Shown here: positions 5,060-37,251 of the stretch, piece after piece | How the letters are laid out: each line of letters begins with the position of its first letter | How positions within the stretch are numbered: the first letter of the stretch is position 1 | Source: Rhopilema esculentum | Lineage: Eukaryota | NCBI RefSeq assembly: GCF_013076305.1 | Contig: NW_027019299.1 | Location: 9,808,265-9,872,264, forward strand | DNA: 64,000 bases | Direction of reading: 5' to 3' | The notes under the pieces: model-generated | The model's database searches: none | What the model saw: the letters and a program-made list of their open reading frames with translations, nothing else | Told to the model about the DNA's origin: nothing | Translations under genes and position numbers: made by a program

Positions 5060-5062
5060 ATG
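5060..5062 (+). CDS. SLC46-like paralog 1, putative ATG-only first coding exon (tentative)
   Basis: agcaATG|gtatgtac is a strong donor 1.5 kb upstream of exon 2, by analogy with paralogs 2 and 3. It lacks the conserved gataaagYcATGgtRagtagg context seen in the other two. Alternative: ATG at 6166-6168 downstream of a TATAAAT at 6142. Confidence 0.25.
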
Positions 5063-6566
5063 GTATGTACATGCGCATATTGCGAATTACCTTTGTTGTC
5101 CTCGTGATCTTCTGATGCTGAAATTGTGCCAAAAGTTGTTCCGCTCGATTACATTTTTAACGAGAAGCACGTTAATTTTGAAGTACACTTATAACGTAAT
5201 TATTTCTTTAAGACGATGTAATAATTTACGTAAATGCCTGGCATGTAATGAAAGTGCCCAGCCTATTCTTCGTTTGTATGTGTTTGGTCGAATGTCGCAA
5301 TAATGAAGACATCTCTGCATTTTGTGTGAAGGAAGGTGACAGGCATAGCTGTTGCTAAGGGCCGCGAACATAATACAGACTGAGGGGGCTGAAACGTTTT
5401 AGGGGGATAAACAAGCTAAAAACCATAGAGGGCGTTTTTTTTAATTGTTTTAAGTACATTTTGAAAATAACTAATTGGCTTATAAGCCCCCGTAGCCCCC
5501 TATTTCCGCGGTCCCTGCCTATCGTTATGCGCCCACTGACTTCATCCAATCTTTTTCAAAGCGATACAAGCTTTTCTTGGGCTGTATTTATGTTCTGCGT
5601 GTCATCAAAATGAACATAGGCTATGTTCTTTTGTAGGTGTGGGGGGGGGGGCTAAAAAACTAATTGCAATTGCTAATGATGGTTGCCAACAGCACAGGGT
5701 AGAAAGAAGCCTAGCTGAGGGTTCTAAGGAAATTTTCTTTTACATGTTCCATTATCGTTGTTATTTGATCTTTATTAAATCTCTTGAGATGATTTTTATC
5801 TGTGAACCAAGAATGTAAAAAGTTAGTCTAACACAACCTCCTTAACTCCTCGATAGCCAACTTCCTTAATTCCTGGGGAGGGGAGGGGAGCTGAGCCTCC
5901 CCAGATTTTCGTCAGGAGGGGCTCAAACCCTGGAGCCCCCTAAGTATGCACCTATGAAAATGAAAATCATTTTTTGGAAGGGGAGGGGAGGGGATGAGAT
6001 GGTGTGGCAAATGAGACAATTTTTAGACATCTGTAGCTTTAGTACCACTTCATTGCAACAAAAATTTCATAGTTTGGCAATTTTTGGGGTGGGGATGTGG
6101 CTGCAGCTCCCAAGAACAACACTTCAAATGTCCAATTTTTATAAATGGTGGTCTATATTTAGGCCATGGTAGCTATTGTTGTGGCAATGTTATTTGATTG
6201 AGATCACTAAACAGTAACAACAATATCTTGAAATGTATGCTATCAATGGAAGGAACAAGAATATAAAAAGTGGCATGCCATGTTGGCAGCTCTTAATGCT
6301 TTTTAAAATAACGCCTTTCAAATTTGGAATGATGAATAAGGAAACCGAGAAAGAATCTTGATCGAAATGAAAATGAAATGAAAGCGAAATGCAGTTTTGA
6401 AAATGTATAGTACTTTAAACTATTTTTTTAAAAAGGTAATCAAGGTATATATGTTTTTTATCTTTATTTGTGATGTGATGTCTGCAAACCTTCCAAGTAT
6501 TGTACATTTTGTTTGACAAAATCAAAATTGTTTAGATAGAATAAGTAGCTTTTAATTTTTGAACAG

Positions 6567-6812
6567 GAAAAGGTAAATGATGAGCCAAATGCCAAGAAAG
6601 GGGTCAAAGGAATTCTTAAAGCTATTTTCACAGCCCCTGAATTGCTATTCTGCATGTATGTGTTTGGTTTGATGCTCCATTTGCCACTACTGCATCAGTA
6701 TGTTTACATGAGGTTCAGTCAGGAAGAGAACTTTCCATACCACTATTCTGCAGCACATGGCAGCTGTGGGAATCATCAACTAAACAAAACAATGAAGGCT
6801 TTGCAAGAAAAG
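6567..6812 (+). CDS. SLC46-like MFS transporter paralog 1, exon 2 (TM1 plus extracellular loop)
   Basis: Acceptor gaacAG|GAAAAG, donor AAAAG|gtagat, phase 0/0. EKVNDEPNAKKGVKGILKAIFTAPELLFCMYVFGLMLHLPLLHQYVYMRFSQEENFPYHYSAAHGSCGNHQLNKTMKALQEK. Confidence 0.8.
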
Positions 6813-7358
6813 GTAGATTTATAACTTGTTCAGGTTTTCTCAAAATTTATCAGCCAGTTTTGCATACAGTTTTTCATTGATGAAATCAAAAGTTTACTGG
6901 ATGTTTAGTGAAAACAAACATAAGTTCCTTATTTTACTATTTTTTACCTAAAAGACTGCAATATTTTGTGAAATGCTACTCCCAGCAGGGAATATTAATG
7001 TTTACTGGGTAATGTTCTAAACCATGTTTTTCTATGGAAGAGAAGGGGTGGGGTAATTTTACAGTAGCATGGTACTAGGGGCGTGTCATTTTAAACAAAT
7101 ACCCAGAAATATTGGTATTATTTTTTTAATAACATTACAGACCCATATATTTGAAGCAGCTAATGTGGCCAATAATACCACAAACAAAGGCAGAAGAATG
7201 CAGAAGAAAGTGAAAGACACAATCTACAGAATTCTCAATATGTGGATATATGTGACATTCAATGTTGTGCAACAGATCATTAAACTTTTGTTATTTCTTT
7301 ATTAATTTAACCATTGGCCTTTTTGCGCCTTTATTCCTGGTACTTTTCTTTCGATTAG

Positions 7359-7671
7359 GTCCAAGGGAAGAGTGCTCGCTTTCAGATAGGTCAAAGTTTG
7401 TTTACCACCATTCCATCTTTAGTAGTGTGTCTCTATCTGGGAGCATGGTCAGACGTTGTGGGAAGAAAGCCAGTCGTTATTCTGGGTACACTTGGCACCT
7501 TGCTAGAGACAATTGTTGTCCTACTGACGATGATGTTGGATCTTCCAATCCGTGTTGTGTACATTGGGTCTTTTTTAAATGGCATGGGAGGCTATTTCAC
7601 AGGTCTCATCCTTGCAGTCATGGCTTACATTGCAGACACAACATCACCAGACAAGAGAGCTCTAAGACTAG
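7359..7671 (+). CDS. SLC46-like paralog 1, exon 3 (TM2-TM4, MFS signature GAWSDxVGRKP)
   Basis: Acceptor gattAG|GTCCAAG, donor CTAG|gtatgt (phase 1). ...LYLGAWSDVVGRKPVVILGTLG...YIGSFLNGMGGYFTG...AYIADTTSPDKRALRL. The MFS motif-A-like G-x-x-SD-x-x-GRK(R)P matches PCFT/SLC46A1 LGAWSDSVGRRP. Confidence 0.85.
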
Positions 7672-7864
7672 GTATGTGACTGAATTTTTCTGGAAATATT
7701 GTAAGAAATTTTCAAAATTTGAATGGCAGTAACAATGACCCCTTATGTTCTGCACAGTTTGGGCCAATTGTTCAAGTTTCTGACATGCTATCCAGGCTCT
7801 TTTTTGATGATTTGTTGGAGAGTACTTAAATTGAAAGGAGTGGTGGCTTTGACACTAGAAAGCA

Positions 7865-8009
7865 GGAAGAGAGGCAACCAGGAAGAGAGGCAACCAGGAA
7901 GAGAGGCAACCAGGAAGAGAGGCAACCAGGAAGAGAGGCAACCAGGAAGAGAGGCAACCAGGAAGAGAGGCAACCAGGAAGAGAGGCAACCAGGAAGAGA
8001 GGCAACCAG
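7865..8009. repeat. 16-bp minisatellite (GGAAGAGAGGCAACCA)x9 in intron 3 of paralog 1
   Basis: Perfect tandem copies. ORF-track entries 7723-8019, 7788-7973, 7826-8101 and 7855-8037 are its translations. Confidence 0.95.
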
Positions 8010-9431
8010 TCACTGCTGATAGTACCATCCAATTCATCGTTTTCCTTTAATTCTGGCAGATAAGATGTTGAATGAAATTTGGAAGCTGAAAACAATTGCA
8101 AGAAAAATTCTGAGAACGACTTGAGATGAGCAAGGGTTTAGTTACAATAACAGTTCTCAGGGGCGAAGGCATTATTTTTCTAAGGATTCTTTCTGACAAA
8201 AAATGCCAATAAGATAGAATAAGACAATTTTCTGTTCTCTTATTTTGTCTTGCTGCTACTGTAGATTGATTCTGGACTTGTAGTCGATGCATTTGGTGGA
8301 ATTTTCTGCTCATACGAGCTTGTTTTACAATATAAATAGATTTTAAATGGATTACGAAGATTACAGCCATTCCATGGATTGGCTACAAAAACCACAGAAT
8401 AATAAAATAGTTGAAATCATTTACTCCTCAAGTTCACCATTTTCCAATCCAGTGGCGTAGCTTTACACTGGACCCAAGACAGAGGAGGCTAGCTGGGCCC
8501 ATTCTGTGGACCGTAATAATGAAATCTATTCTATAGTAATTTTCTTATTCTGGAGTCTAAGTTCATTGTCAAGCGAGAAGTCTCTGGGGCCCAGCCTCGC
8601 TCTCGGCAGTAATTTAACTTTGAGAACATAGAAAACATTTAGGTTCCTTTTCACTATCCAGTAGTCGATTTTACCGCCAAACTAAGTATTTTGTGGAGCA
8701 ATTGAAGATTTACCGACCAGCCCTACCCCCCCCTCCCCCTCCCAACTAGCTACGCTACATCCTGGTTGCATCAGAGCATCATTAAACTGATTAACCATCT
8801 CTTTCGCCCAGGGTAACTACGCTTCTGACCATAGAATGTTCCTTGGTTATTCAACAATCAAACGTGCTTACAGACGAAACAAATATGGAGGCCATCGCCC
8901 TCCTACTTCTTCTTTGCTATACCTAGCTTCAGTATCATATGGTACCAATAAGCCAGCCCCTAAATTGAGTTTTTTCATTTCTTTTTAAGTTTTTGGTGTT
9001 AACCCAAAAAAATGTATTTATAAGTTGAAAGGCAAAATACAATCTTCCTGAACTTCTGAAAGTGTTAGGAGAAAGAGAAACACAAAGGTAGACCAGACCT
9101 TATTCTTATTGTTGTCAAAGTAGAGTTGCGTGAGATCACAATCAAGTGTGCTAATTCGTTAGCTGGACTGATAGCAATTCATGAAATAATGTAAGCGAAA
9201 CCTTGAAGCCTAGCTTTGACATAATTCACTTCGAAGCTCCTTCAAAAAGAGTCAGACAGCAAGCAACTCTTTTATTTAAAAAAAAATTGCAAAAGTTTAC
9301 AATTTGAACCTTAGCTTTTATTCCTCTCACATAAATCTCCCTAAAACGTAATTCTTGCCTTGCATTTTATTGCAAAGTTGGAAGAAATATTTATCTCAGA
9401 AGAGTACATTAATTTTTTATTCGGTTTCTAG

Positions 9432-9628
9432 GTATTATGGAATGTGTAGTTTTCGTAGGAGCAACATTAAGCAATTTCATCAGTGGACATCTTATCAGCA
9501 ATTATGGCTTCAAAATACCGTATATTATTGTCGTCGTTGCTGTCGGTATATCTTGTCTTCTCGCTATATTTGCGATGCAAGAATCACTCAAAAACAAACC
9601 AGTTAAATCAGCCGGGTGCTTCAACATG
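9432..9628 (+). CDS. SLC46-like paralog 1, exon 4
   Basis: Acceptor ttctAG|GTATTATGG, donor ACATG|gtatgt. GIMECVVFVGATLSNFISGHLISNYGFKIPYIIVVVAVGISCLLAIFAMQESLKNKPVKSAGCFNM. Phase 1 to 0. Confidence 0.8.
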
Positions 9629-10108
9629 GTATGTTTAATTCAGTTACTTTAATTAAAAATCTGGAATTTCAAACCCATTTATAACCACAAGCTATTAATG
9701 TCTGGCTAGCTACATGAAAATTTTTGATGTGTTTACACGCGTTACAACTATGAAATAGAACTTCTTTGATCATATGCTGTTTCTATAGAAGCAGAATCTA
9801 GAGAGATCTGGAAGTTTAATCAAAGTTTGGTAACACAAAGGAGGTAATTTCGCCAATATTTATGAAGGGGAAAGGAGATTGATTTAATTGGAAATCATTG
9901 GAAATGCTCTCGTGCTATTTACTAGCCTGAGCAGTACTCATGATTGAGAAATTTAAAGGACATTAATTAGAGAAGACTGGTAGAGTAGAAGGACAGTGAT
10001 TGATAGAGTAGAAGGACAAGGGCAGTGACTGTAAAGTCAGGCCTTTTATTTTTTCTTGGCCAGTTGCGTTAGGGTATTACGGATCTTATTATTGTTTGTT
10101 TTTTCTAG

Positions 10109-10460
10109 GCCTGTCTGAAGTACCCGCTACAAGTATGGCGCACCCTTTCAATGCCACGCCCTGGAAAATGGAAGATCGTTGTTCTTATGCCTGCCACACT
10201 TTTCGTTAACATGCTCTCGATGGGCATTAGCTCGCTGATAACGCTGTACCTCATGAATTCACCTTTCTGCTTAAGCCCAATCGAAGTTGGATATTTTTCC
10301 GGCACACGCTTATTTCTCATGGGTATTGGTGCAGCTGTTGGCATTAAGTTGCTTGGCCTTTTGATGCAACCCCACTTCATCTCACTAGTGGGAATCATGT
10401 CCTATTTTGCTTTTTACACTTTGCTGGCCTTTGTAAAAGATTCGAAGACAGTATATATAG
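10109..10460 (+). CDS. SLC46-like paralog 1, exon 5
   Basis: Acceptor tttctAG|GCCTGT, donor ATAG|gtatgg. ACLKYPLQVWRTLSMPRPGKWKIVVLMPATLFVNMLSMGISSLITLYLMNSPFCLSPIEVGYFSGTRLFLMGIGAAVGIKLLGLLMQPHFISLVGIMSYFAFYTLLAFVKDSKTVYI. Phase 0 to 1. Confidence 0.8.
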
Positions 10461-10768
10461 GTATGGATCAAAACTACTTGAATTACTGTTTTTAGGTTGT
10501 TTTTAAGTACACTAGAAAAACTCGATTTATTTTGACATTGTAAAGTTGCTTTGGCTTGAAAAACAATTTTTCAGGTTTATCTTGACTATTTTTTAATACT
10601 CTTTAGTAAAAAGACTATACTCATTATCATCATGATCATGATCATCACCATCATCAATTGCAAAAATCGAGTATTCGTACCAAGAATGTACCGATTCGTA
10701 CCATGGTAAGAATCGGTACAGCTGTATCTTTAGGATAGTATTTCACCGCAAATCCTCTCTTTCTACAG

Positions 10769-10852
10769 CTTGCTTGCTTGGCGCCTTGTCTGGCACAGCT
10801 AGTCCTATTTTTCGCAGTATACTGTCAAAGACGGTCTCTTCAAACGAGCAAG
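10769..10852 (+). CDS. SLC46-like paralog 1, exon 6
   Basis: Acceptor ttctacAG|CTTGC, donor GCAAG|gtaact, phase 1/1. (A)CLLGALSGTASPIFRSILSKTVSSNEQ(G). Confidence 0.8.
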
Positions 10853-11222
10853 GTAACTTGAAAGAAATTTCAAATATACTTATTAGTTCGTTTTCGAGCT
10901 GCAATTCCTGCCGAAATTCCTTAGAACGCCCTGTTGCTAAAGTATTCTTTTAAAAAGCAACTCCTTCCCCTCTTCCCGTTACCAATGTTGACCCTTGTAA
11001 ACTATCTGATAGGAATCAAATGGACAACCCCGAAGCTCTTAACATTATATACCCAAACAACATCGTTGGAAAGGAGGGGGGGGGGAAGAAAACACTATTA
11101 GCAAAATGTGAACAATTTAATGTAGTTTGCCAAGACCTTTTAAGGAGATTGTGCATTAAAGTTCTGCCTGAAACAGACTCAAAAATGTGGAAAAAGTAGT
11201 TTCGCAAATCTCTTTTTTGCAG

Positions 11223-11382
11223 GTGTTCTGTTTTCAGCCGTCTCGTCTCTAGAGATGTTGGCTGTTTTTCTTGGTAACTTTCTGTTCAATGCTGTTTATC
11301 TGGTCTTAAATCGTCATGGAAAACCTGGAGCCATTTTCTTCCTGGTGGACGCTATTTTGCTGATACCATTCTTCTTGGCTTT
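11223..11382 (+). CDS. SLC46-like paralog 1, exon 7 (last two TMs)
   Basis: Acceptor ttttgcAG|GTGTTC, donor GCTTT|gtaagt. GVLFSAVSSLEMLAVFLGNFLFNAVYLVLNRHGKPGAIFFLVDAILLIPFFLA. The donor sits inside an in-frame TTG-TAA, so an unspliced transcript would stop here. Confidence 0.75.
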
Positions 11383-11999
11383 GTAAGTAAATTCATGTAA
11401 AACCATTACTTCAGGAACTGAGGAAATATCGGCCAATTATACTTAGGGAAAATTATGTTTTACATTGAAAGATATTGTTTTGACAAAGATGATGAGCTCC
11501 TTCTGCATTTGTACAGATTTATCTTTTTCATTATTGTGTCTCTTTGAAGGTTAAAGGCAATCTGTCTCGTTGTGGATTGGTTAACGAGAACAATAGCTGG
11601 AACAATAGCCTAAACACAATTCCAGCGCTCCGCCATATTTTTTACAATGCGATAAATTAAAGGGGGACTGGAAACAATAAATAATCCCTTTGTTCTTATA
11701 ATCAATCAGCGTCGTGACAACTTGCCTTTAGTATAGATATACTATAGCTGCTCTTACCTAATAAACTTCTCTGGGCCTCTACAGAAACAGTCCTGTGGCT
11801 AGTATTGCTAGTCTTTAATTAGGGGTCTGGAGAACATCTACTAATACATCTATTTTTCAAGTTAGGGGTCTGGGGCACATTCTAGATCGGAAAAGCTAGC
11901 TCATTCAAACTGTTCTGGTGATGATGAAATTGACAAAAACAATTCATTTATTTTTTTATCATGTTTTTGGCTCTTATTCGTAAATATTCTCTTTTTCAG

Positions 12000-12132
12000 G
12001 ATCTATATAAGGAAAATACGAAGCGGTGGCAAAGGCAGAGAAGATCTTCAAGCGATTGTGAATGCTGATTTACCTAGCACTGGGAAGGAGATTGTCGATG
12101 ATTACGGTTCTAGTACCTCGAATCGGCATTAA
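12000..12132 (+). CDS. SLC46-like paralog 1, exon 8 (cytoplasmic tail, stop TAA)
   Basis: Acceptor ctttttcAG|G. LIYIRKIRSGGKGREDLQAIVNADLPSTGKEIVDDYGSSTSNRH*. Phase 2 is completed by the first G. Total CDS 1488 nt, 495 aa. Confidence 0.7.
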
Positions 12133-14210: not shown

Positions 14211-14304
14211 TCACTGAATTGCTCCCTGTGCAGTTTTTTACCGAGCTTCGTCTTCAAGCTTCTTCCTGCCTGGGATGCAGGTACCCTCAGAGTTTGATAA
14301 AGTC

Positions 14305-14307
14305 ATG
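14305..14307 (+). CDS. SLC46-like paralog 2, first coding exon contributes only the initiator ATG
   Basis: gataaagtcATG|gtgagtagg has a Kozak-like context and a strong donor. The same context gataaagccATG|gtaagtagg is present in paralog 3. Phase 0 joins to exon 2 at 16546. Confidence 0.55.
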
Positions 14308-16545: not shown

Positions 16546-16791
16546 GATGAAGCAGAAACTGAGCCAAAAACTAACGAAGGAATCAAAGGTATTCTCAAAG
16601 CTGTATTTACAGCCCCTGAATTGCCATTTTTCATGTATGTGTTTGGTATGATGCTCCATATGCCACTTCTGCAGCAATATGCTTACATGAGGTTCAGTCA
16701 GGAAGAGAACTTTCCATACCACTATTCTGCAGCACACAGCACCTGTGGGAATCATCAACTAAACAAAACAATGAAGGCTTTGCAAGAAAAG
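16546..16791 (+). CDS. SLC46-like paralog 2, exon 2
   Basis: Acceptor atttacAG|GATGAAG, donor AAAAG|gtattg. DEAETEPKTNEGIKGILKAVFTAPELPFFMYVFGMMLHMPLLQQYAYMRFSQEENFPYHYSAAHSTCGNHQLNKTMKALQEK. Confidence 0.85.
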
Positions 16792-22116: not shown

Positions 22117-22175
22117 ATCATTATCATCATCATCATTGTCTTTTTCATCATCATCGTCAGTCTTATCCAAGCGTC
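22117..22175. repeat. (ATC/ATT)n-type trinucleotide low-complexity tract in intron 6 of paralog 2
   Basis: catcattatcatcatcatcattgtctttttcatcatcatcgtcagtc. It explains ORF 22090-22416 (IIIIIIVFFIIIV). Confidence 0.8.
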
Positions 22176-27672: not shown

Positions 27673-27675
27673 ATG
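27673..27675 (+). CDS. SLC46-like paralog 3, first coding exon contributes only the initiator ATG
   Basis: gataaagccATG|gtaagtagg. Phase 0 joins exon 2 at 28954, giving M-DDVRIEPKT... Confidence 0.55.
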
Positions 27676-28953
27676 GTAAGTAGGCCACCTTTATTTTTCA
27701 GGGTTACCTTTATGAAAATCGATTTGATATCCACTCGATCTTTAAGCGGAGCCTGTCATTGTACAAACGATGTACGCGATCACCGTGAACCGTAACCTAT
27801 GTTGAAATTGTGCCATAAACAACTCAACTACATTGTTAATGAGGTCAATTACATTGTACTTTTATAATCCAGATGTTTTCTGGAAAATGATTCGGGACGA
27901 TGGGGGCTGTGGATATTCTTCTACAAGATTTAGGCAAAAAAGCTGATTTCTTTTAGATTAACCAACCAGAAAATGGTAAACTTTGCACAAAACGAGAAAA
28001 CAACTTGTACTTTAAAATAATTTGATTTCGATATGTTAACGCCACCGAGAGAAAATGATAATTGGCATTACAGATACAAACTTCCGGTATTTTGTTTACA
28101 TCGGATAAAAAATGCGCCCGGTGCTGGTCGGCGAAGTTCCAGGCTGAAAGCAAAGGGGTTCTTTATTTTAAGGAAATCCTGTTCAAAAAGGATTAGGAAG
28201 AGAGACGGAAATTTCATAGAAAACTACAGTTTTGTGTTTACCTAATGATAGACTGCTAGTATTTCTGTATTGCGAGAGGGCATAATTGCGTGAGCCTAAA
28301 ATTTCCGTGTCACGCTCTGCTATATTGTTGTTAAGTCGGCTGACTGTTTTGGTGTGTTTAATCTAGAGATCAACCCCCTTGTTAAAATTTAGACAGTTTT
28401 AGGGTCTCAGCAAGCGCATGTGTGGTTGGGTGAATTCCTTGACAATGTAAACTAGCCCTTCATTATTTTGCTATGGATTTTCCATGTATGAGCAGTTTCT
28501 ATCAGCCTTTCAGAGTTGGTGAATAGTTTGAATCATTTCATTTACGCAATAAAAAAAATTTAATACAAATGCAAGTATAGAGGGTGTTGTTTTGGGTATG
28601 GCTTCTAGAAGTTGCCTACAGGATAAACCCTCTTCCTATCCTTTTGTAACAGGCTCACTCTCTTGTCTATGTCACCAAATGCCTCTTACACTTTAGGAAG
28701 GCACCTCTGCAGATAGGCCACCCTTACATCCTATTGTTCTGGAAATAGAGCAAGGTGGACAGAGAGCTCCCTCTTATGGCACCACTTGTCGTGCCAAATG
28801 TCAGTTTTATAATGTATGACTTCCCAGTAGCTAAAATGTTTTAGGGATGCCTAAGTCTTTGTGTTTGCAAAATAGTTATCTTCAGGTATCAACTGAAAGG
28901 CCATTTTGTCTGTTCATTTGGCAGAAGTTTTATGTAACTTTTAATATTTACAG

Positions 28954-29199
28954 GATGATGTAAGAATTGAGCCCAAAACTAACCATGGAATTAAAGGCAT
29001 TCTCAAAGCTGTATTTACAGCCCCGGAATTGCCATTTTTCATGTATGTGTTTGGTATGATGCTACATATGCCACTTCTGCAGCAATATGCTTACATGAGG
29101 TTCAGTCAGGAAGAGAACTTTCCATACCACTATTCTGCAGCACACAGCACCTGTGGGAATCATCAACTAAACAAAACAATGAAGGCTTTGCAAGAAAAG
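28954..29199 (+). CDS. SLC46-like paralog 3, exon 2
   Basis: Acceptor atttacAG|GATGATG, donor AAAAG|gtattg. DDVRIEPKTNHGIKGILKAVFTAPELPFFMYVFGMMLHMPLLQQYAYMRFSQEENFPYHYSAAHSTCGNHQLNKTMKALQEK. Near-identical in nucleotide sequence to paralog 2 exon 2 plus ~70 bp of the following intron. Confidence 0.85.
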
Positions 29200-31292
29200 G
29201 TATTGTATTACAGTATGTAATGATATGAACAAGAAGGGGTTTCTAAAAATATTTCAAAAACCATAGTACAATTTGGTATTGGGATGAATCATAGTAATTT
29301 TATGAAATGAATTAGGGGGACTAATTAGATTGGATTCTCCAAGCCCCCAAAACCATTTGGTACTATAAACTTTTAACTCTTTAATTTGTGCCTTTGAGAT
29401 TATGACACAGGTTTTTGTCATTTTTTTTGCCCAACATGTCATCACTGCCATTGTTTTTTCTGCCACAAAAAACTGTCACTGTTATTGTGCAACATTCAAG
29501 TTTGTGATGAAGTTTGATGCAAAATTATTCTAAGCATCTAAACAAAGTATTTTTTCATTCAATCTTTAATAGGCCTTTAGATATATGTTAGGTTGATTTG
29601 ACCAATGATCATTACATTTCTTTGTAATCTTACCTTTGGGCAGATTTTTTATGTTACTGGCTTCAGCCTGTCATTAACTTTAAATTGTAATCATTAATGT
29701 CCATTTGGTTTGTAAACATCTGATGTTCAATTCTCATAAAGAATTTTCCTGTTTGGTTAAAAATTTTTATCTTTTTTATGCCTGAAGCAAATGTTGTAAA
29801 TGTATTATAAATGCTGAATCAAAGCAGACATATCATGTAATATTTAATGATGTTCAACAGTTTATACAATCCTGGAGGGCCACTCCCATACTTGACCTTC
29901 CTCTCATTCTTTACCTGATGGGATGTGCTGTGAGACAGGGTATCCTTTTTTCAATAAAACTTATGAGACGGGGTATTATGATATGCATCAAAATTATGAG
30001 ACAGGGTATTGAAATTAAGAAAAACTGCCAAGAACAATTTCAGTTACATTTGCTAATGGGAATTATCATGAGGTCTGGTATGTCTGGCAAAATTGTGCAT
30101 ATTTTTGGTACTCTTTTTATGGGACACTGTATGCTTTTTGGCAATTTTTTTTATAAGACAGGGTTAGGGTGCAAAAAGGTTTTCTGCACACCTTTGTCAC
30201 TTTCTAGTCAAGTGCCCCCTCTTCCGGTTACACAACTTATTAAACAATCAGCCCAATGGTGTCAGCGTTCTAGCAAACTCGATAACTCCAATTTTTTCGA
30301 AGAAATCAATGCAACCATCTCTCTCGTAACGAAGGCATCGTTAGCTATGGCAAATAACCAAATTTGCCAAATTTGTCTACCCATTATTCAAACCTGAAAA
30401 TGGGCATGTTTACTTTAATTTTAGAGAAAAAGTTAAAGTTTAAAATGATACGTTTTATTTTGCTGATTCTCCTTTCCTTTCTGCCAGCTTTACAGTACAT
30501 CTTTCTGCCAAAACCAGCTCTTTCAGCAGCATTTCATTTTTGGAAAAGAAATTAACGATTCACACGTGTTCGAAACAATCAAATTTTGTTTCTGTTTATA
30601 CAGGAACGCAATCTATCAGTTCCATTTTGTACGCGAAATGTGTTTCATATTCTGGACCAGTTCTCATGTCCACATGGAAACAGAAAGACTGCGAACCGCA
30701 CCACGTTTCGTATCACTTTTTATAAAGTTCTAAATTTTTGAAACGAGATGCTCGCGCTCCTATGTGAGCGTTCTAGCTACTTTCTGGAACGGAACGCAGG
30801 GCCTTCGCTAGCTATTGTGCTGGGGTGCTCAGGTCCCATTTCCTGAAAAGGGGCTGACTCTTCCTTTAATTGCTGGCAGTTCTGAAAATTTGCATATGAA
30901 GTATCTATTCATGGCAAAAATCCTTGTTTTCACGACGGGAAGTGGCGACCTTGAAGGAACGATAACCGATAGATTTTTCATGATGGCCAGATGAATTCAT
31001 AGATAAAATTTTTGCAGTCCTTTTACCCAATACAAAACTACACAAAAGGCAAGAGTTTGGGAAAAGCCAAGGAAGCCAAATTCTGCGAAAAATGGCGGAT
31101 CATTTTGAGATACATTATGTCCCCTGACCGAAGCATGAAGACAAAAGACTACAATCGTGTTCAGCAATAAACTAGTGTAAATTTGCTTATTTTCTGAGAT
31201 TTTTAGAAAAAATATTATTAACCATCAATATTTTTATTTATTTAAACATCGGCATTTCTCTATTTTTAGGCCTCTTTTATTTTCCTTGATAG

Positions 31293-31605
31293 GTGCAAGC
31301 AAAAAGTGCTGGCTTCCAGATAGGCCAAAGTTTGTGCAATACTATTCCATCCTTGGTTGTTTGCCTATACCTTGGAGTTTGGTCTGACAAAGTTGGCAGA
31401 AAGCCAGTGGTTATTCTGGGAACACTTGGTAGCCTTTTAGAAGCACTGGTTGTTCTTTCGACAATGATATTTGATCTTCCGATTCTAGTTGTCTATATTG
31501 GGTCTTTTTTAAATGGCATGGGAGGCTATTTCACCGGCCTCATCGTTGCAGTAATGGCCTACATTGCAGATACAACACAACCCGAGAAGAGAGCTCTACG
31601 ACTAG
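31293..31605 (+). CDS. SLC46-like paralog 3, exon 3
   Basis: Acceptor cttgatAG|GTGCAAGC, donor CTAG|gtattt. VQAKSAGFQIGQSLCNTIPSLVVCLYLGVWSDKVGRKPVVILGTLGSLLEALVVLSTMIFDLPILVVYIGSFLNGMGGYFTGLIVAVMAYIADTTQPEKRALRL. Confidence 0.85.
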
Positions 31606-31685
31606 GTATTTCTCCCATTTTTAAATGTTCTACAAAACAGGGCTCCCGGCGAAGCAAGGGGCAAGGGGGCCTCGATTGACTGAAC

Positions 31686-32425
31686 ACTCCAAGAACAGGC
31701 TGAATACCCCAAGAACACCCCCCAAGAACACCCCAAGAACACCCTAAGAACAAGCTATTAAGCGGCTGAACACCTTTTAAAACATATCAAAATCGGCATA
31801 TCATTCGAAAAATCATTTGGTCAATCAATCAAAATTAATTTTGGGGCGGAAAATATTCATTCCGCTTGCACTAGTAAACTAACTAGCGTGCACTAGCATA
31901 CCGTGACCACATAATAGTTAATTTCTATTCTATGTCGTGACCATTTGGGCAAATTAGCGGATGGGAAGAGCAATTGTTTGGAGGACAATAGGTAGTCAAA
32001 TGACATGTCGTATTTTTACATTGTCACTGGATGTGAGAGGAGAGATTTGAAAACAACGGGAAATTGCTTGAATGCACCATAGTCATAAAGGGAGTCGAAC
32101 TCGAATTTGCTCAGCGTGTACAAACCCCCGTTCACACTTTTGGCGCGCAAAACATCAGTTGATTGTAACAACATCAACATCATTAGACTTATCAGGCCCT
32201 TTCCCGCCCCAAAATTAATTTTGATTGATTGACCAAATGATTTTTCGAATGATATGCTGATTTTGATATGTTTTAAAGGGTGTTCAGCCGCTTAATAGTT
32301 TGTTCTTAGGGTGTTCTTGGGGTGTTCTTGGGGTGTTCTTGGGGTGTTCTTAGAGTGTTCTTGGGGTGTTCTTGGGGTGTTCTTGGGGTGTTCTTGGGGT
32401 GTTAAGCCTATTCTTGGATTGTTCA
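31686..32425. mobile_element. Foldback-type element: ~170-230 bp inverted arms with 10-bp subterminal tandem repeats (CCAAGAACAC / GGTGTTCTTG) around a ~350 bp spacer, in intron 3 of paralog 3
   Basis: 31740-31849 is the reverse complement of 32204-32310 (~97% identity). The outer ends carry 4-5 (left) and ~9 (right) copies of the 10-mer. ORFs 31559-31753(-), 32292-32546(-) and 32311-32598(+) are repeat translations (LGCSWGVLG...). Confidence 0.8.
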
Positions 32426-32821
32426 GTCTTTTAGAAACGACGGCAAGGGGGGCATGTCTCCAACTTTTTGCAAGACAGAACAGCTTTTTCGCAAAAACTT
32501 TTGCTTTAATTCTTACTTTCCAAATTTCGTCGGATGATGCAGCCAATGTTAAATGTTATGTTTTCGAGTACATATTTGTTTTACCTTTATCAAGATAAAA
32601 TAATAGAAGTAGTTCTATTCTTTTATCTTGCTTTTGCTATTTGAGTTGCATCGACCATATTCAAAAATTTTAAAGTTTGCAATAATGAGCAATGTGTGAC
32701 TGACTGGCTGATCATCTGTGATCGATCTTGGTAAACTTGCATGATGCCCCAAAATCATGATAATGTTGCCTGAAATTGATCCAACCCATTGTATTGTAAT
32801 GTGGTCTACTTGCTTTTCTAG

Positions 32822-33018
32822 GTGTTATGGAAGCTGTAGTGTTTATAGGAGCAACTGCCAGTAGTTTCATCGGTGGACATTTTATCAGCAAATATGGCTT
32901 CAAAACCCCGTACATTCTTGTTGTTGTATGCCAAGGTGTTTCCTGTCTTTTTGCAATTTTTGCACTTTCAGAATCAAACAAAAACAAAACAGTAACAACA
33001 GCCGGCTGTTTCACTATG
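32822..33018 (+). CDS. SLC46-like paralog 3, exon 4
   Basis: Acceptor cttttctAG|GTGTTATGG, donor CTATG|gtaagt. GVMEAVVFIGATASSFIGGHFISKYGFKTPYILVVVCQGVSCLFAIFALSESNKNKTVTTAGCFTM. Confidence 0.85.
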
Positions 33019-33454
33019 GTAAGTTCCATTCAGTTACTTCTTTTGAAAATTTGAAAATTCAGTTCCGTTTAGAGCGGTAATTGTGTAGCCCTGAGCAAAT
33101 TTCTATTCTGAAAAGAATCTTATCTACTTAACAACACAAGTTTAAGGGATAGGCAATAATATTTTCAATATTTACATACTAATTCAACATTCTTGTCAAG
33201 GCCTAGCCAATTAACGATTCGCTGTCATACAAATTGACGATTTTCTTTCAAACAAATTAGCGATTCCTTGTCATACATTCCTTGACATATTTTGATACAA
33301 TTTTGCCAACTCTAATCACTCATTTTTTTTATTGGGCTCTAGTGTTAAACAATTATTGATGCATATGTATCATGATTCTTTATAAAAACTTTCTGACAAT
33401 TAGGCCAGAAGAAATAAGACATCGTGGATTTTAGTTATTCTTTTTTCTATTTAG

Positions 33455-33806
33455 GCTTTTTTGAAGTACCCTTTTCAAGTATGGCAAACTCTTTCAAAGC
33501 CAAGACCTGGAAAATGGAAGATCGTTGTTCTTATTCCTGCCACACTTTTCGTTAACATGCTTTCAATTGGCATCAGCTCTTTGATAACGCTGTACCTTAT
33601 GAATGCACCGTTTTGCCTAAGCCCAATAGAAGTTGGATATTTCATCGGGACGCGTTTTTTTCTCATGGGTATTGGTGCAGCTCTTGGCATCAAATCTCTT
33701 GGCCTTTTAATGCAGCCTCACATTGTTTCATTGATTGGGATTATGTCATACTTTGCATTTTATACCTTGCTGGCATTCGCACAACACAAGCAAACAATCT
33801 ACATAG
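33455..33806 (+). CDS. SLC46-like paralog 3, exon 5
   Basis: Acceptor tctatttAG|GCTTTT, donor ATAG|gtatga. AFLKYPFQVWQTLSKPRPGKWKIVVLIPATLFVNMLSIGISSLITLYLMNAPFCLSPIEVGYFIGTRFFLMGIGAALGIKSLGLLMQPHIVSLIGIMSYFAFYTLLAFAQHKQTIYI. Confidence 0.85.
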
Positions 33807-34588
33807 GTATGATTTATAGCAATTCAAAGTTTATTTTTGTAATTTTTCCAGCAGAACTGTGAAGTTATCTTAATCTGTATAACAAAAAAGGAAATGACAT
33901 CATAAAACTTATTTAGAATTTTTGAATTTTGCAAACATGACCTGAAAGAACGCCTCTAAAAGGGCAAAATCAGTTAGATCTGTTAATGATTGCCCAAGAT
34001 ATGGCAACATGAGCAGGGGATATTGCCCCATCAAGCCACTGTCATGTGGCCTTGGTTCTTAAACTCATAAACCGGGCAAAAACAACAGTGATCATTTAGC
34101 AAAACATTGCTCTGTCACCGACAACACATCAGCCAATTTGCAATGGATTTAACTGATATTGCACATTCAATGTATTTCACCGTGCTCTTTCAGCTTATAT
34201 TGTCAAATTTTACAATTTCTAAAAATAGAGATGACGTCATCCTTTTGCCGCTGTAATTGCAACTACATCTTTATGTTGGCCATGTTAACGTTTTTACATA
34301 GCAAGTGACAGATTTCAGCAACATTTATTTATCGGTTCGCCATGGGGTGAGACCGTTCAGGAAATAATCTTCTTTAATAGATGGTAAATTTTAAGACTTT
34401 TCTTCTACAACTCTGTTTCTACAACTGTCTGATATACCATACCCTCTTCGGTAGAATCGATGTAAATGTGGAGTGGGAAGAGGGAAGGTTAAAAAAGCAA
34501 GGGGTTTAAGATTCCTCGTTCTAGATTTTATGTGAAAGAATATTCCCAAGGAATAGTGTATATCTGGCTAGATCTTTCTTTCCAACAG

Positions 34589-34672
34589 CTTGTGTTGCTG
34601 GGGTACTTTCCGGAACAGCTAGTCCGATTTTTCGCAGTATATTGTCGAGGGCGGTCAACCAAACTGAGCAAG
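34589..34672 (+). CDS. SLC46-like paralog 3, exon 6
   Basis: Acceptor ttccaacAG|CTTGT, donor GCAAG|gtaaat. (A)CVAGVLSGTASPIFRSILSRAVNQTEQ(G). Confidence 0.85.
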
Positions 34673-36393
34673 GTAAATAGACCAATCATTTGTTTTTCAT
34701 TTTTGCTGCTCATTATTGTCATAATCACCAAAATAATCGTTATTTTTATCGTCATCTTCATTTTAATCGTTAATCATCGTCAGCTCGAGCACATGATGCA
34801 GAGGTAAATTTCTAAACCTAGTGCTTAATTTTAAAGCATCTTCCCCAATCTTCATGGTGTATGGATAACTTTGTAGACTTTCTATATCTATATCATAAAT
34901 GGGTTACGCCAAACCATAAACGGACGAGTTATGTTGAATCAATGTTAAACGATACCAGCAAATCAGATTTATCGTAGAACCAATCTGTAAGAGCAGAGCG
35001 AGCCCGTAGCCAGGCCTTCTACGTAGGGGTGGCAAATACAGGCGAAGTTTAAAGTAAAGTTTTATGTAGGGAGGGGAGGAAGGGGTGCGGAGAGTTAGTG
35101 GAAACAAAGAAGCAAAAAAGTTGTAAAATGTCTTCAGAAATTAAACAACTTTCTTCCACTTAATTTCTATTCAGCTAGAAACATTTAAATGTTATGTTTT
35201 CCATCAAGATTTCATTTTTCAAACGCAAGATGTACAAGATCGTTCTTTCTCTCTGCCTGCAAAGATCTTCCCTGAGAGGAATCTATCCTTGTTTATGCAG
35301 AAAACAAGCATTTTTCAAACCAAGTCTCTATGAGTCACAGAAAACAAGTCTCTATGTGTTGATGTGAAGCCAACAGTGATTGCAACTTTTAGAAATTAAT
35401 AAAGAGCGAGTATCGGCTAGCTGAGCTCGCTTTCTGGCCACTTTAAATCTTTAAGCACTCGAGAGAAGATTAGCACACTGCTTGAAAAAAAATCACCAAG
35501 CTCCTTGAATGTTTTCTCCAGAATAAATTATTTACGCTGGATATTTGTATAGAGGTATCAAGGTCTCGTAATAAAAACTCCCAGTAAGCAATTTTCCTTC
35601 CGTCAGAGTTATCTTGACTCAAATTGTCATATCAATGAAAACGACGAAAAAGTCCATTGAGAAAATTGGAGAAAAATTCTCCGGGTGGCTCTCTTGCTCC
35701 AGGGGTGCCACCCCATGCCCCCCCTCTGGCTACGGACCTGAGCAAAAGAACAAAATAGAATAATACAAATTGGCTTTTTAAAATGGCTTAAGGATCACTT
35801 TACACAGGAATTTGAAAAAAATTGGATGTTTGTCTCAACAAACCCCCCTATACCTCATGGAAGATTTACGTGCGCTTCAGACTGAATACTATCGTCTACC
35901 AGTTAAAATTTCATAGCGGGACAAAGACTGATTATCATCTTAGGAAGCATGACATGTTTGGTAATGATAGTGAATGAAATGAATACCGCCGTGTCATATA
36001 TACCAAAGTACTTGTTTATATATATTCAAATCCTCACTTGACGAAGAATATAGGGCATTTCATTAAAGAAGCCATTAATTTGCGTGCGATTTTATATAAC
36101 GTGATTAAGATTTTGGCAAACTATTCTAATGAAACTTCATCACCTCCTGTTTCAAATTTTTAAGGTTCCTTCATCTTTAGAAATATGAAATGAATCTGTT
36201 ACGTTGCTTTTGTCAATATTGTTGTATTTAATTCAGTAAACTGCAAATAATTGATTTTGATAATGCTATTGTCTTCGTCTTCGCCATTGGCAGCCACGTC
36301 CAATTGACAATCATCACAAGTAGCGAATGTCTATTACAATTTGTGACTGATCGATTCTTAAACACAAAATTGTTACAAACATCTCCTTTTTAG

Positions 36394-36553
36394 GCGCTCT
36401 GTTTTCAGTCGTCTCTTCTCTAGAGATGTTGGCCGTTTTTCTTGGTAACTTTCTTTTCAACGCTGTTTATACTGTCGTCAATGGCAGTGGGCATCCTGAA
36501 TCAATTTTCTTTGTGGTTGTTGGTCTTTTGCTGTTACCGTTTCTCTTGAATTT
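36394..36553 (+). CDS. SLC46-like paralog 3, exon 7
   Basis: Acceptor cctttttAG|GCGCTC, donor AATTT|gtaagt. GALFSVVSSLEMLAVFLGNFLFNAVYTVVNGSGHPESIFFVVVGLLLLPFLLN. Confidence 0.8.
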
Positions 36554-36714
36554 GTAAGTATATTTATTATTGGTCAGCTCTAACTTCTCGGAAACTTAAG
36601 ACATATTCGTCAATCAAATTAAAATGCAAAGGAAAGTTGATGATATTGGCAACTTTGAAGGTCAGCCAAACCGTACTCAGTTTGTGGTGTCCTTGATGAT
36701 ATTGCGTATTGAAC

Positions 36715-36900
36715 TACAGTGTAACCTCCATCAACGGACACCTCTATACAACGGACACCTCCAAACAACGGACAGATTTTTGAGTCCCAAAACAAAAGTT
36801 ATAAAGAGATGACACCTCCATACAGCGGACACCTCTCTACAACGGACAATAACATTGGTCCCACTGGTGTCCGTTATATGGAGGTTCCACTGTTTATCAA
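36715..36900. repeat. Short dispersed/inverted repeat cluster (ACAACGGACACCTC units) in intron 7 of paralog 3
   Basis: Four or more copies of CGGACACCTC(T/C)A(T/A)ACA(A/G)CGGACA plus an inverted copy GGTGTCCGTTATATGGAGGT. Confidence 0.6.
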
Positions 36901-37121
36901 TAGTCTTGAAAAGAGAATAAAGCCCCATATATCTTGTTTTTGTTTTCGCACATATTTTCTTATCCAATACAATAGTTTATCTTAACTTATCAATCTAGTT
37001 TAAGTGCACATATATAACTGTAGAATTTGTTTCTCACTTTTTGTGATAGATGCAAGGTTTTTTCTCTTTTTCTTGCTATATTGTGTTTATGAAACCTGTT
37101 CATACTTTTCCTCTATCGAAG

Positions 37122-37251
37122 AATATATATAAAAAGAAGAAAAAGTGACGAAGGCCAAGATGATCTTGAAAAGATTTGGAATGTGCAAGAGGTTGCAGGC
37201 GATTATGGTTCCGGTGCCTCAAGTCCTCCGCAGTCTCCTAAAGACGCTTGA
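37122..37251 (+). CDS. SLC46-like paralog 3, exon 8 (C-terminal tail, stop TGA)
   Basis: Acceptor ctatcgaAG|AATAT. LIYIKRRKSDEGQDDLEKIWNVQEVAGDYGSGASSPPQSPKDA*. Total 1485 nt, 494 aa. Confidence 0.75.

What the first reader, a model, noticed from the sequence alone, without database searches (positions are those of the whole stretch)
5060..37251. Head-to-tail tandem triplication of complete SLC46-family MFS transporter genes
Three same-strand paralogs (5060-12132, 14305-23447, 27673-37251). Each has 8 coding exons with identical intron positions and phases (0,0,1,0,1,1,2) and 494-495 codons. All keep the MFS GAWSDxVGRKP signature and 12 predicted TM segments. Pairwise identity is only ~70-85% at the protein level, so the array is old and its members have diverged, not a recent assembly artefact. 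SLC46 members in other animals are reported to transport folates and/or immunostimulatory small molecules (muropeptides, cyclic dinucleotides). Lineage-specific tandem expansion of this family therefore deserves attention.
Basis: partly seen in the sequence, partly recalled or inferred. Interest (0 to 1): 0.6.

Follow-up and report, generated by a model that had tools for sequence, protein, structure and literature searches.

The report
Three tandem SLC46 transporter genes, jellyfish
The window holds three intact, head-to-tail copies of an SLC46-type membrane transporter gene from the jellyfish Rhopilema esculentum; this is an ordinary lineage-specific tandem duplication, already annotated in RefSeq, and the substrate is unknown.

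Summary
Three + strand genes (5060-12132, 14305-23447, 27673-37251) each have 8 coding exons. All introns are GT-AG with phases 0,0,1,0,1,1,2. The products are 495, 494 and 494 aa and 71.5-79.6% identical. Coding exon 1 is the ATG alone, with a donor site directly after it.

All three translations match RefSeq proteins of Rhopilema esculentum (XP_065071360, XP_065071359, XP_065071361). The second RefSeq model starts at an in-frame ATG 10 codons upstream.

They are MFS transporters of the SLC46 family:
- Pfam MFS_1 matches all three.
- The best solved relative is chicken PCFT, by sequence (E 3e-37) and by fold (TM 0.80/0.91).
- The model of gene 3 has 12 TM helices.

All three are under purifying selection (dN/dS 0.20-0.30; dS 0.38-0.81). 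They form a clade with 100% bootstrap inside the scyphozoan SLC46 proteins. The same three-gene array is present in a second, related genome assembly.

Family-wide residues are kept. The residues specific to folate handling in PCFT are not, so the name "folate transporter" is unproven.

Extras: a decayed solitary exon-4 copy at 41.0 kb, and signs of gene conversion between genes 2 and 3. Interest is low.

The parts
5060..12132 (+). Gene 1 (g1), an SLC46-family MFS transporter of 495 aa. CDS exons: 5060-5062, 6567-6812, 7359-7671, 9432-9628, 10109-10460, 10769-10852, 11223-11382, 12000-12132.
   Evidence: Model built. All introns are GT-AG, phases 0,0,1,0,1,1,2. The translation is an exact match to RefSeq XP_065071360.1. 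Pfam MFS_1, E 4e-25.
14305..23447 (+). Gene 2 (g2), an SLC46-family MFS transporter of 494 aa (504 aa from the upstream ATG). CDS exons: 14305-14307, 16546-16791, 18113-18425, 20424-20620, 21106-21457, 21933-22016, 22642-22801, 23318-23447.
   Evidence: Model. Identical to RefSeq XP_065071359.1 (P0002) apart from its 10 extra N-terminal residues. Pfam MFS_1, E 1.1e-19.
14275..14307 (+). Alternative, longer coding part of g2 exon 1 (MQVPSEFDKVM), as used by RefSeq.
   Evidence: In-frame ATG at 14275; P0002 sequence. In the related genome both ATGs are lost at the orthologous position, so which start is used is uncertain.
27673..37251 (+). Gene 3 (g3), an SLC46-family MFS transporter of 494 aa. 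CDS exons: 27673-27675, 28954-29199, 31293-31605, 32822-33018, 33455-33806, 34589-34672, 36394-36553, 37122-37251.
   Evidence: Model. 100% identical over its full length to RefSeq XP_065071361.1 (P0001). Pfam MFS_1, E 4.9e-25. AlphaFold model with 12 TM helices. Top fold match is PCFT 7bc6.
5060..5062 (+). g1 coding exon 1: the start codon alone, followed directly by the donor GTATGT.
   Evidence: AAAGCAATG|GTATGT. Conserved base for base in the related genome.
27673..27675 (+). g3 coding exon 1: the start codon alone, followed directly by the donor GTAAGT.
   Evidence: AAAGCCATG|GTAAGT. The 17-mer AAGCCATGGTRAGTAGG occurs only at g2 and g3 in the window, against 0.01 expected by chance. Conserved in the related genome.
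16524..16907 (+). g2 side of a probable gene-conversion tract: exon 2 plus about 116 nt of intron 2.
   Evidence: 91% identical over 396 bp to 28932-29326. Synonymous difference in exon 2 is 0.11, against 0.26-0.45 in most other exons. The intron part is 92% identical between g2 and g3 but is absent from both orthologues in the related genome.
28932..29326 (+). g3 side of the same probable gene-conversion tract.
41039..41236 (+). Solitary relic of an exon 4 (remnant of a fourth copy or of a partial duplication), 3.8 kb downstream of g3.
   Evidence: tblastn: 57-62% aa identity to g2/g3 residues 192-252, E 1e-13 to 8e-16. 79-81% DNA identity to exon 4 of g3 and g2. The acceptor site and the first ~15 nt are lost. 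No other exon-like match appears in 37.3-64 kb.

Best explanation
The region is a tandem array of three intact, selectively maintained paralogues of one SLC46-family major-facilitator transporter gene of the scyphozoan jellyfish Rhopilema esculentum.

Origin (inferred from divergence and trees):
- Two successive head-to-tail duplications made the array. g1 split first, then g2 and g3.
- Both happened within the scyphozoan lineage. They came after the split from the Sanderia lineage and before the split from a closely related species that carries the same array.
- A further partial or decayed copy left one relic exon.
- g2 and g3 later exchanged sequence around exon 2 by gene conversion.

The proteins (shown by sequence and model):
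- Each is a 12-helix MFS carrier of the PCFT/SLC46 type.
- Each keeps the TM2-TM3 motif-A loop (D115, G118, R119).
- Each keeps the glutamate equivalent to human PCFT E185, which the literature links to proton coupling, and the arginine equivalent to R376.
- Each keeps the two extracellular cysteines (C68, C307) and one N-glycosylation sequon in the first extracellular loop.

Mechanism and substrate (inferred, not tested):
- The most likely mechanism is alternating-access, proton-coupled transport of a small organic, probably anionic, solute across the plasma or endolysosomal membrane.
- The PCFT-specific residues of the folate site are replaced, so folate should not be assumed to be the substrate.
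- The positions equivalent to PCFT's functional residues are the same in all three copies, apart from the H247 and F282 equivalents. Variation is highest in TM3, TM6 and TM12 and in the tails. In the MFS fold TM3/6/9/12 are the outer, lipid-facing helices (general knowledge; TM9 is average here).
- The copies therefore more likely differ in expression, sorting or dosage than in substrate.
For: Gene models:
- Built. They are exact matches to RefSeq proteins.

Family:
- Pfam MFS_1.
- PCFT 7bc6 is the best solved relative by sequence (E 3.1e-37) and by fold (TM 0.80/0.91, rmsd 2.7 A, E 1e-19).
- The model has 12 helices.

Selection and divergence:
- dN/dS is 0.20-0.30.
- dS is 0.38 for g2-g3, 0.74 for g1-g3 and 0.81 for g1-g2.
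- Introns are no longer alignable except next to exons.

Phylogeny:
- g1+g2+g3 100% bootstrap; g2+g3 85%; scyphozoan clade 100%.

Conservation of the array:
- ENA assembly ERZ25067906, contig ctg4003_155x_l, has the same three genes in the same order.
- Exon DNA identity to its orthologues is 92-95% for g1, 86-89% for g2 exons 5-8, and 94-96% for g3 exons 2-7 (89% for exon 8).

Residues:
- Kept: D109, G112, R113, E185, E232, Y291, R376, Y414.
- Replaced: R148, D156, H247, H281, F282, W299, Y315, Y362.
- Mapping. Residue roles are taken from PMC8978580.

Variation by region:
- TM1, TM4 and TM8 17-21% variable; TM3, TM6 and TM12 50-55%; C-terminal tail 79%.

Gene conversion.
Against: - There is no expression, localisation or transport data here. 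No RNA-derived contig carrying these exact proteins was on record.
- The exon joins therefore rest on three things: RefSeq's models, conservation between the paralogues and the related species, and a spliced contig of a more distant relative that joins exons 2-5 at the same positions (P0004/L004).
- The proton-coupling inference rests on one conserved glutamate. The aspartate and histidine implicated in PCFT (D156, H281) are absent.
- The protein library is clustered at 50% identity. Extra copies in other scyphozoans would be collapsed, so the timing 'after the Sanderia split' is provisional.
- The structure model has moderate confidence (pLDDT 76) and was built from only 12 aligned sequences.
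Confidence: 0.85

Rival explanations
1. The three genes are true functional orthologues of PCFT/SLC46A1, that is, proton-coupled folate importers. Two of them carry that name in RefSeq. The triplication would raise or diversify folate uptake.
For: - The best solved relative is PCFT, by sequence and by fold.
- RefSeq names g1 and g3 'proton-coupled folate transporter-like'.
- E185, E232, R376 and the D109/R113 loop are kept.
Against: - Residues that the PCFT literature ties to folate binding or proton-linked gating are all replaced: R148 to S, D156 to Y, H281 to S, F282 to M/I, Y315 to M, Y362 to C, H247 to C/F.
- Those residues are invariant in the shark and chicken PCFT sequences and, where aligned, in the python sequence.
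- In the bootstrap tree the cnidarian clade does not join the PCFT clade; the relevant nodes have 8-46% support.
- RefSeq names g2 'SLC46A3-like', which shows that the names come from weak best hits.
Confidence: 0.15
2. The array encodes importers of microbial or immune small molecules (muropeptides, cyclic dinucleotides). This is the role reported for Drosophila CG8046 and mammalian SLC46A2/A3. The expansion would reflect host-microbe interaction in a jellyfish.
For: - SLC46 members are reported to deliver peptidoglycan fragments to cytosolic sensors and to import cGAMP (PMC11509177; bioRxiv 10.1101/2022.09.29.509906).
- The jellyfish proteins are as close to SLC46A3 as to PCFT: 127 bits to a bat SLC46A3 against 131.6 bits to chicken PCFT.
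- They lack the folate-specific residues.
Against: - Nothing in the sequence speaks for these substrates.
- No SLC46A2 or Drosophila sequence was available for comparison.
- The proteins do not fall inside the vertebrate SLC46A3 clade.
- No paper in the library links SLC46 to cnidarian immunity.
Confidence: 0.12
3. One or more of the three copies is a non-functional or decaying duplicate.
For: - A decayed relic exon lies just downstream, so copies in this array can die.
- g2 has diverged more from its orthologue (86-89% DNA identity in exons 5-8) than g1 and g3 have from theirs (92-96% in all exons but g3 exon 8, 89%).
- g2's start-codon region is not conserved in the related genome.
Against: - All three have intact ORFs and canonical splice sites throughout.
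- dN/dS is 0.20-0.30 in every pair.
- All family-invariant residues are kept.
- All three are retained in the related species.
Confidence: 0.05
4. The repeat is an assembly artefact, or the units are exons of one long gene.
For: An older automatic annotation (EukProt) fused g1 and g2 into a 1053-aa product (P0011).
Against: - The copies differ by dS 0.38-0.81, and their introns are unalignable.
- Each unit ends in a stop codon in a conserved last exon and starts with its own ATG exon.
- RefSeq has three separate genes.
- An independent assembly of a related species has the same array.
Confidence: 0.02

Closest known systems
Proton-coupled folate transporter, SLC46A1 (chicken PCFT, PDB 7bc6/7bc7; human PCFT)
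   Same: - 12-TM MFS fold, TM-score 0.80/0.91.
- Alignable over residues 28-428, E 3.1e-37; about 25% identity in the structural alignment.
- The D109/G112/R113 loop, E185, E232, Y291, R376 and Y414 are kept.
- The two cysteines invariant across the family alignment and a glycosylation sequon in the first extracellular loop are kept.
   Different: - The residues implicated in folate handling (R148, D156, H247, H281, F282, Y315, Y362) are replaced.
- The genes are not placed in the vertebrate PCFT clade.
- There are three tandem copies instead of one.
SLC46A3 (lysosomal proton-coupled steroid-conjugate and bile-acid symporter; also implicated in muramyl-dipeptide delivery)
   Same: - Same family.
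- About 25-27% identity over about 90% of the length.
- SLC46A3 also lacks the PCFT-specific R148, D156 and H281.
- RefSeq names g2 after it.
   Different: - SLC46A3 has D at the E185 and E232 positions and R at the Y362 position. The jellyfish proteins have E, E and C.
- The jellyfish genes lie outside the vertebrate SLC46A3 clade, which has 99-100% bootstrap on its own.
- Lysosomal location is untested.
Other cnidarian SLC46-like genes (Sanderia malayensis, Hydractinia, Hydra, Porites, Nematostella)
   Same: - They form one medusozoan clade (93% bootstrap), next to a weakly supported (44%) group of the anthozoan sequences Porites and Nematostella; the Montipora homologue was used as the outgroup. 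The branching broadly follows the species relationships.
- Identity to the query (g3): 52% to Sanderia, 40% to Hydractinia, 33-35% to anthozoan sequences.
- They share the S/A and Y/S pattern at the R148 and D156 positions.
   Different: The three Rhopilema genes are each other's closest relatives, so the triplication is younger than these splits.

Membership tests
Major facilitator superfamily (MFS) | Match to the Pfam MFS_1 profile above the curated cut-off | tested here: met
   88.9, 71.0 and 88.6 bits against a cut-off of 33.4.
Major facilitator superfamily (MFS) | Twelve transmembrane helices in two six-helix halves joined by a central loop | tested here: met
   The AlphaFold model of g3 has 12 long helices with a central loop at 235-272. 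417 PDB fold matches reach E <= 0.001, and all 50 listed are MFS-type transporters. The hydropathy scan gives 12, 11 and 12 segments. Only g3 was modelled.
Major facilitator superfamily (MFS) | Motif A (G-x-x-x-D-x-x-G-R-[KR]) in the TM2-TM3 loop | tested here: met
   G[AV]WSDxVGRKP at residues 111-121 in all three. g3 has V for A at the second position.
SLC46 family (PCFT / SLC46A2 / SLC46A3) | Closest characterised relatives, by sequence and by fold, are SLC46 proteins | tested here: met
   PDB sequence search: PCFT at E 3.1e-37; the next hit is EmrD at 2.2e-4. Foldseek: PCFT at 1e-19; the next hit is at 1.5e-10. All named hits are PCFT or SLC46A3.
SLC46 family (PCFT / SLC46A2 / SLC46A3) | Residues conserved across the family (human PCFT numbering D109, G112, R113, E185/D, E232/D, R376, Y414; the cysteines at positions 68 and 307 of g3) | tested here: met
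   All are present in g1, g2 and g3. C68 and C307 are invariant in the family alignments.
SLC46A1 / PCFT orthologue (folate transporter) | Residues tied to folate binding and proton-linked gating: R148, D156, H281, F282, Y315 | tested here: not met
   They are S, Y, S, M/I and M in the three jellyfish proteins. They are invariant in the chicken, shark and python PCFT sequences. Roles are from PMC8978580.
SLC46A1 / PCFT orthologue (folate transporter) | Phylogenetic placement inside the PCFT clade | tested here: not met
   The PCFT clade has 100% bootstrap without them. The nodes that would link it to other groups have 8-46% support.
SLC46A1 / PCFT orthologue (folate transporter) | Acid-pH-dependent folate or antifolate uptake | not testable with these tools
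   Needs heterologous expression and uptake assays.
SLC46A3 orthologue | Phylogenetic placement inside the SLC46A3 clade | tested here: not met
   The vertebrate SLC46A3 clade (with lamprey) has 99% bootstrap without them.
SLC46A3 orthologue | Lysosomal localisation and transport of steroid conjugates or bile acids | not testable with these tools
   No experimental data.
SLC46A2 / Drosophila CG8046-type muropeptide or cGAMP transporter | Orthology to SLC46A2 or CG8046; transport of muropeptides or cyclic dinucleotides | not tested
   No SLC46A2 or Drosophila sequence was identified among the hits that were looked up. Function is known only from the literature.
Tandem gene duplication array | Adjacent, same-strand copies with identical exon-intron structure that are each other's closest relatives | tested here: met
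   Same strand, intergenic spacers of 2.2 kb and 4.2 kb, identical phases. Monophyly at 100% bootstrap.

The most novel reading that the evidence does not exclude
The jellyfish array could be a set of importers for microbe-derived or immune signalling molecules (muropeptides, cyclic dinucleotides). These would feed cytosolic sensors. The duplication and the g2/g3 sequence exchange would then reflect adaptation to microbes. That would put SLC46-mediated delivery of immune ligands at the base of animals rather than in insects and mammals only.
Probability: 0.1. Interest if true: 0.6.

Novelty: new member of a known kind. Interest (0 to 1): 0.2.

Why it matters
The finding matters little by itself. 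Tandem duplicates of solute carriers are common in animal genomes, and these three are already predicted in RefSeq.

Three points are useful:
1. The RefSeq names ('folate transporter-like', 'SLC46A3-like') should not be read as substrate assignments. The folate-site residues are absent, and there is no one-to-one orthology to vertebrate SLC46A1 or SLC46A3; SLC46A2 could not be compared.
2. The array is a clean, dated example of duplication followed by gene conversion in a cnidarian, with an orthologous array available for comparison.
3. If anyone wants to test whether the reported transport of immune ligands by SLC46 proteins is ancient, these genes and their single-copy relatives in Hydra and Nematostella are obvious candidates.

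Tried and rejected
- Looked for further copies. tblastn with all three proteins at E <= 10 over the rest of the window found only the solitary exon-4 relic at 41.0 kb. A weak match at 42201-42299 (E 2.7) was dismissed as chance.
- Looked for RNA-level confirmation. Exact-protein look-ups of P0001 and P0002 found no contig on record. The only indirect support is a spliced contig of a more distant relative that joins exons 2-5 at the same positions (P0004/L004).
- The word-indexed homologue search reached only 8 and 13 proteins. The exhaustive search was needed to get relatives for a tree.
- Rfam found no RNA gene anywhere in the window.
- Single long gene, assembly artefact and pseudogene readings were considered and rejected (see the rival explanations).
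- I considered that the low synonymous divergence of exon 2 reflects nucleotide-level constraint only. I rejected that as the sole cause. The similarity between g2 and g3 runs about 116 nt into intron 2, in sequence that both orthologues in the related genome lack.
- The related assembly (ENA ERZ25067906) could not be identified to species with the tools available.
Full report
**What is in the sequence**

The window is AT-rich (GC about 0.36) and eukaryotic. Six peptide pieces taken from open frames matched the + strand three times each, in the same order, at E 1e-10 to 1e-74. I extended each match to the nearest consensus splice sites. This gave three gene models with eight coding exons each:
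- g1: 5060-5062, 6567-6812, 7359-7671, 9432-9628, 10109-10460, 10769-10852, 11223-11382, 12000-12132.
- g2: 14305-14307, 16546-16791, 18113-18425, 20424-20620, 21106-21457, 21933-22016, 22642-22801, 23318-23447.
- g3: 27673-27675, 28954-29199, 31293-31605, 32822-33018, 33455-33806, 34589-34672, 36394-36553, 37122-37251.

All 21 introns are GT-AG and the phases are 0,0,1,0,1,1,2 in every gene. The products are 495, 494 and 494 aa without internal stops. Pairwise identity is 71.5% (g1/g2), 75.4% (g1/g3) and 79.6% (g2/g3).

The first coding exon is the start codon alone. A strong donor site follows it directly: AAAGCAATG|GTATGT, AAAGTCATG|GTGAGT and AAAGCCATG|GTAAGT. Conservation of the protein continues upstream of the first internal Met in exon 2. 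An upstream ATG exon is therefore required.

**Independent confirmation of the models**

The g3 translation is 100% identical over its full length to a RefSeq protein of the scyphozoan jellyfish Rhopilema esculentum (XP_065071361.1, 'proton-coupled folate transporter-like'). g1 is an exact match to XP_065071360.1. g2 equals XP_065071359.1 ('SLC46A3-like'), except that RefSeq starts at an in-frame ATG at 14275, ten codons upstream in the same exon 1. An older EukProt annotation had fused g1 and g2 into a 1053-aa product and had added 56 residues at the N-terminus of g3. The separate ATG exons, the conserved terminal exons with stop codons and the RefSeq models all argue against that fusion. I found no RNA-derived contig carrying these exact proteins. 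A 1672-nt JGI contig from a more distant relative (P0004/L004) carries exons 2-5 joined at the same positions and then reads on into intron 5. That is what a partly spliced transcript would look like.

**Family**

All three proteins match Pfam MFS_1 well above the cut-off. Among all solved structures, the only strong sequence match is the chicken proton-coupled folate transporter SLC46A1 (7bc6, E 3.1e-37, residues 28-428). The next match is a bacterial MFS pump at 2e-4.

An AlphaFold model of g3 (pLDDT 76, pTM 0.75, from 12 aligned sequences) has twelve long helices and a central loop. Its best fold match is again 7bc6 (TM 0.80/0.91, rmsd 2.7 A, E 1e-19). That is nine orders of magnitude ahead of the next MFS structure.

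Motif A is GAWSDVVGRKP in g1, GAWSDNVGRKP in g2 and GVWSDKVGRKP in g3. Membership of the SLC46 family is supported.

**No assignment to a vertebrate member, and no substrate**

I used the numbering offset between chicken and human PCFT given in a review (PMC8978580) and the HMMER and MAFFT alignments.
- Kept in the jellyfish proteins: D109, G112, R113, E185, E232, Y291, R376 and Y414. These are conserved across most of the 138 SLC46-like sequences compared.
- Replaced: R148 (S), D156 (Y), H247 (C/F), H281 (S), F282 (M/I), W299 (L), Y315 (M) and Y362 (C). These are residues the PCFT literature ties to folate binding and proton-linked gating. Wherever they are aligned, they are unchanged in the chicken, shark and python PCFT sequences, except Y291, which is F in the shark.

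Vertebrate SLC46A3 also lacks the PCFT-specific set but differs from the jellyfish proteins at other positions (D at the E185 and E232 positions, R at the Y362 position).

In a bootstrapped neighbour-joining tree the PCFT clade (100%) and the SLC46A3 clade (99%) each stand alone. The nodes that would join the cnidarian sequences to either have 8-46% support. No SLC46A2 or Drosophila sequence could be identified among the hits I was able to name. The RefSeq names are therefore best-hit labels, not orthology statements.

**History of the array**

Nei-Gojobori estimates give dS 0.38 for g2-g3, 0.74 for g1-g3 and 0.81 for g1-g2, with dN/dS 0.20-0.30. Introns are unalignable except next to exons. 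The three genes form a clade with 100% bootstrap, with g2+g3 at 85%. This clade sits inside a scyphozoan clade (100%) with Sanderia malayensis and an unnamed JGI sequence. The scyphozoans group with the hydrozoans Hydractinia and Hydra in a medusozoan clade (93%), and the anthozoans Porites and Nematostella form a weakly supported neighbouring group (44%).

A second assembly, ENA ERZ25067906, from an unidentified but clearly related species, carries the same arrangement on one 2.5-Mb contig. Its genes lie in the order g1-like, g2-like, g3-like on one strand. Exon DNA identity to the window's genes is 92-95% for g1, 86-89% for g2 exons 5-8, and 94-96% for g3 exons 2-7 (89% for exon 8). Identity to the non-orthologous copies is 75-88%, except in exon 2 and exon 6 of g2/g3 (89-96%), the exons whose synonymous divergence between g2 and g3 is also lowest.

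The triplication is thus real, older than that speciation, and younger than the split from the other scyphozoan sequences sampled. That last point is provisional, because the protein library is clustered at 50% identity.

The ATG|GT exon 1 is conserved base for base for g1 and g3 in the related genome. At the position orthologous to g2's exon 1, both ATGs are lost there. Another AAGCCATG|GTGAGT lies 2.9 kb upstream of the exon 2 of its g2-like gene.

**Sequence exchange and decay**

Exon 2 has unusually low synonymous difference: 0.11 for g2-g3, against 0.26-0.45 in most other exons. The g2/g3 similarity (91% over 396 bp, 16524-16907 against 28932-29326) runs about 116 nt into intron 2. That intron stretch is 92% identical between g2 and g3. 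It is missing from both orthologues in the related genome, whereas the equivalent g1 stretch is 88.5% identical to its orthologue. The simplest reading is gene conversion between g2 and g3 in the R. esculentum lineage.

A solitary exon-4-like segment lies 3.8 kb downstream of g3, at 41039-41236. It is 79-81% identical in DNA to exon 4 of g3 and g2 and has lost its acceptor site. No other exon remnants surround it. It is the remnant of a fourth copy or of a partial duplication.

**How the proteins probably work**

Shown:
- Three intact genes under purifying selection.
- An MFS/SLC46 fold.
- Conserved motif A, the E185 and R376 equivalents, two invariant extracellular cysteines, and an N-x-T sequon at N74 in the first extracellular loop.

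Inferred:
- The mechanism is alternating-access, proton-coupled transport of a small organic solute.
- The positions equivalent to the PCFT functional residues are the same in all three copies, except H247 and F282.
- Variable positions are concentrated in TM3, TM6 and TM12 (50-55%) and the C-terminal tail (79%). TM1, TM4 and TM8 are 17-21% variable. In the MFS fold TM3/6/9/12 are the outer helices (general knowledge; TM9 is average here at 30%).
- The copies therefore more likely differ in expression, sorting or dosage than in substrate.
- The substrate is unknown. Folate is unlikely on the residue evidence. Muropeptides and cyclic dinucleotides are possible only by analogy with other SLC46 members.

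**Novelty and verdict**

No paper in the library links SLC46 to cnidarians. The R. esculentum genome paper mentions neither folate nor SLC46 nor major-facilitator genes; it only notes a general expansion of transmembrane-transport families. The genes themselves are already predicted in RefSeq. This is a correct and well-read observation of an ordinary lineage-specific tandem duplication of a known transporter family. Interest is low (0.2).

Noticed in passing
window 41039-41236 (+): Solitary exon-4-like relic of the same gene family, 3.8 kb downstream of g3. The frame is open but the acceptor site is lost, and no other exon remnants lie nearby.
   Followed up: yes
window about 42400-64000 (+): The next gene downstream is an axonemal dynein heavy chain. 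Pfam DHC_N2 matches at 55572-55877 and 56041-56301, and DYH2-5-8_CC matches at 53594-53956. It runs off the end of the window.
   Followed up: partly
window 4033-4299 (-): Reverse-transcriptase fragment (Pfam RVT_1, E 2.7e-6, just below the cut-off) about 0.8 kb upstream of g1's ATG exon. Probably a decayed retroelement.
   Followed up: partly
window 14275-14307 and L003 about 13980 and about 16698: The start of g2 is ambiguous: ATG at 14275 (RefSeq) or at 14305. In the related genome both ATGs are lost at the orthologous site, and a different ATG|GTGAGT exon-1-like sequence lies closer to exon 2.
   Followed up: partly
window 16524-16907 and 28932-29326: Exon 2 plus about 116 nt of intron 2 are 91% identical between g2 and g3. 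The intron part is absent from both orthologues in the related genome. This is probably gene conversion.
   Followed up: yes
window 29224-29756: About 530 bp just after exon 2 in g3's intron 2 has no counterpart in the orthologous intron of the related genome. Its first ~100 bp are shared with g2's intron 2.
   Followed up: partly
window 7863-8009; 32301-32403; 1261-1530: Tandem repeats: a perfect 16-mer x 9.2 in g1's intron 3, an 11-mer x 9.4 in g3's intron 3, and (ATATA)n / (ATATC)n upstream of the array. The two intronic arrays produce long spurious ORFs.
   Followed up: no
window 18792-18900 vs 30745-30642; 3552-3605 vs 17748-17854: Short dispersed repeats are shared, in inverted orientation, between introns of different copies and with the upstream region. 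They are likely small transposable-element remnants.
   Followed up: no
g2 exons 5-8 (window 21106-23447) vs L002 446-3441: g2 is more diverged from its orthologue (86-89% DNA identity in exons 5-8) than g1 and g3 are from theirs (92-96% in all exons but g3 exon 8, 89%). This suggests faster evolution of the middle copy.
   Followed up: partly
L003 3505-5919 (-): In the related genome an 804-aa ORF with a weak FAM200-ZBED5 RNase-like hit lies just upstream of the g1 orthologue. I did not check whether the window has a counterpart.
   Followed up: no
public annotation of the region (P0011, P0009): The older EukProt gene set fuses g1 and g2 into one 1053-aa protein and adds 56 extra N-terminal residues to g3. 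RefSeq splits them correctly.
   Followed up: yes
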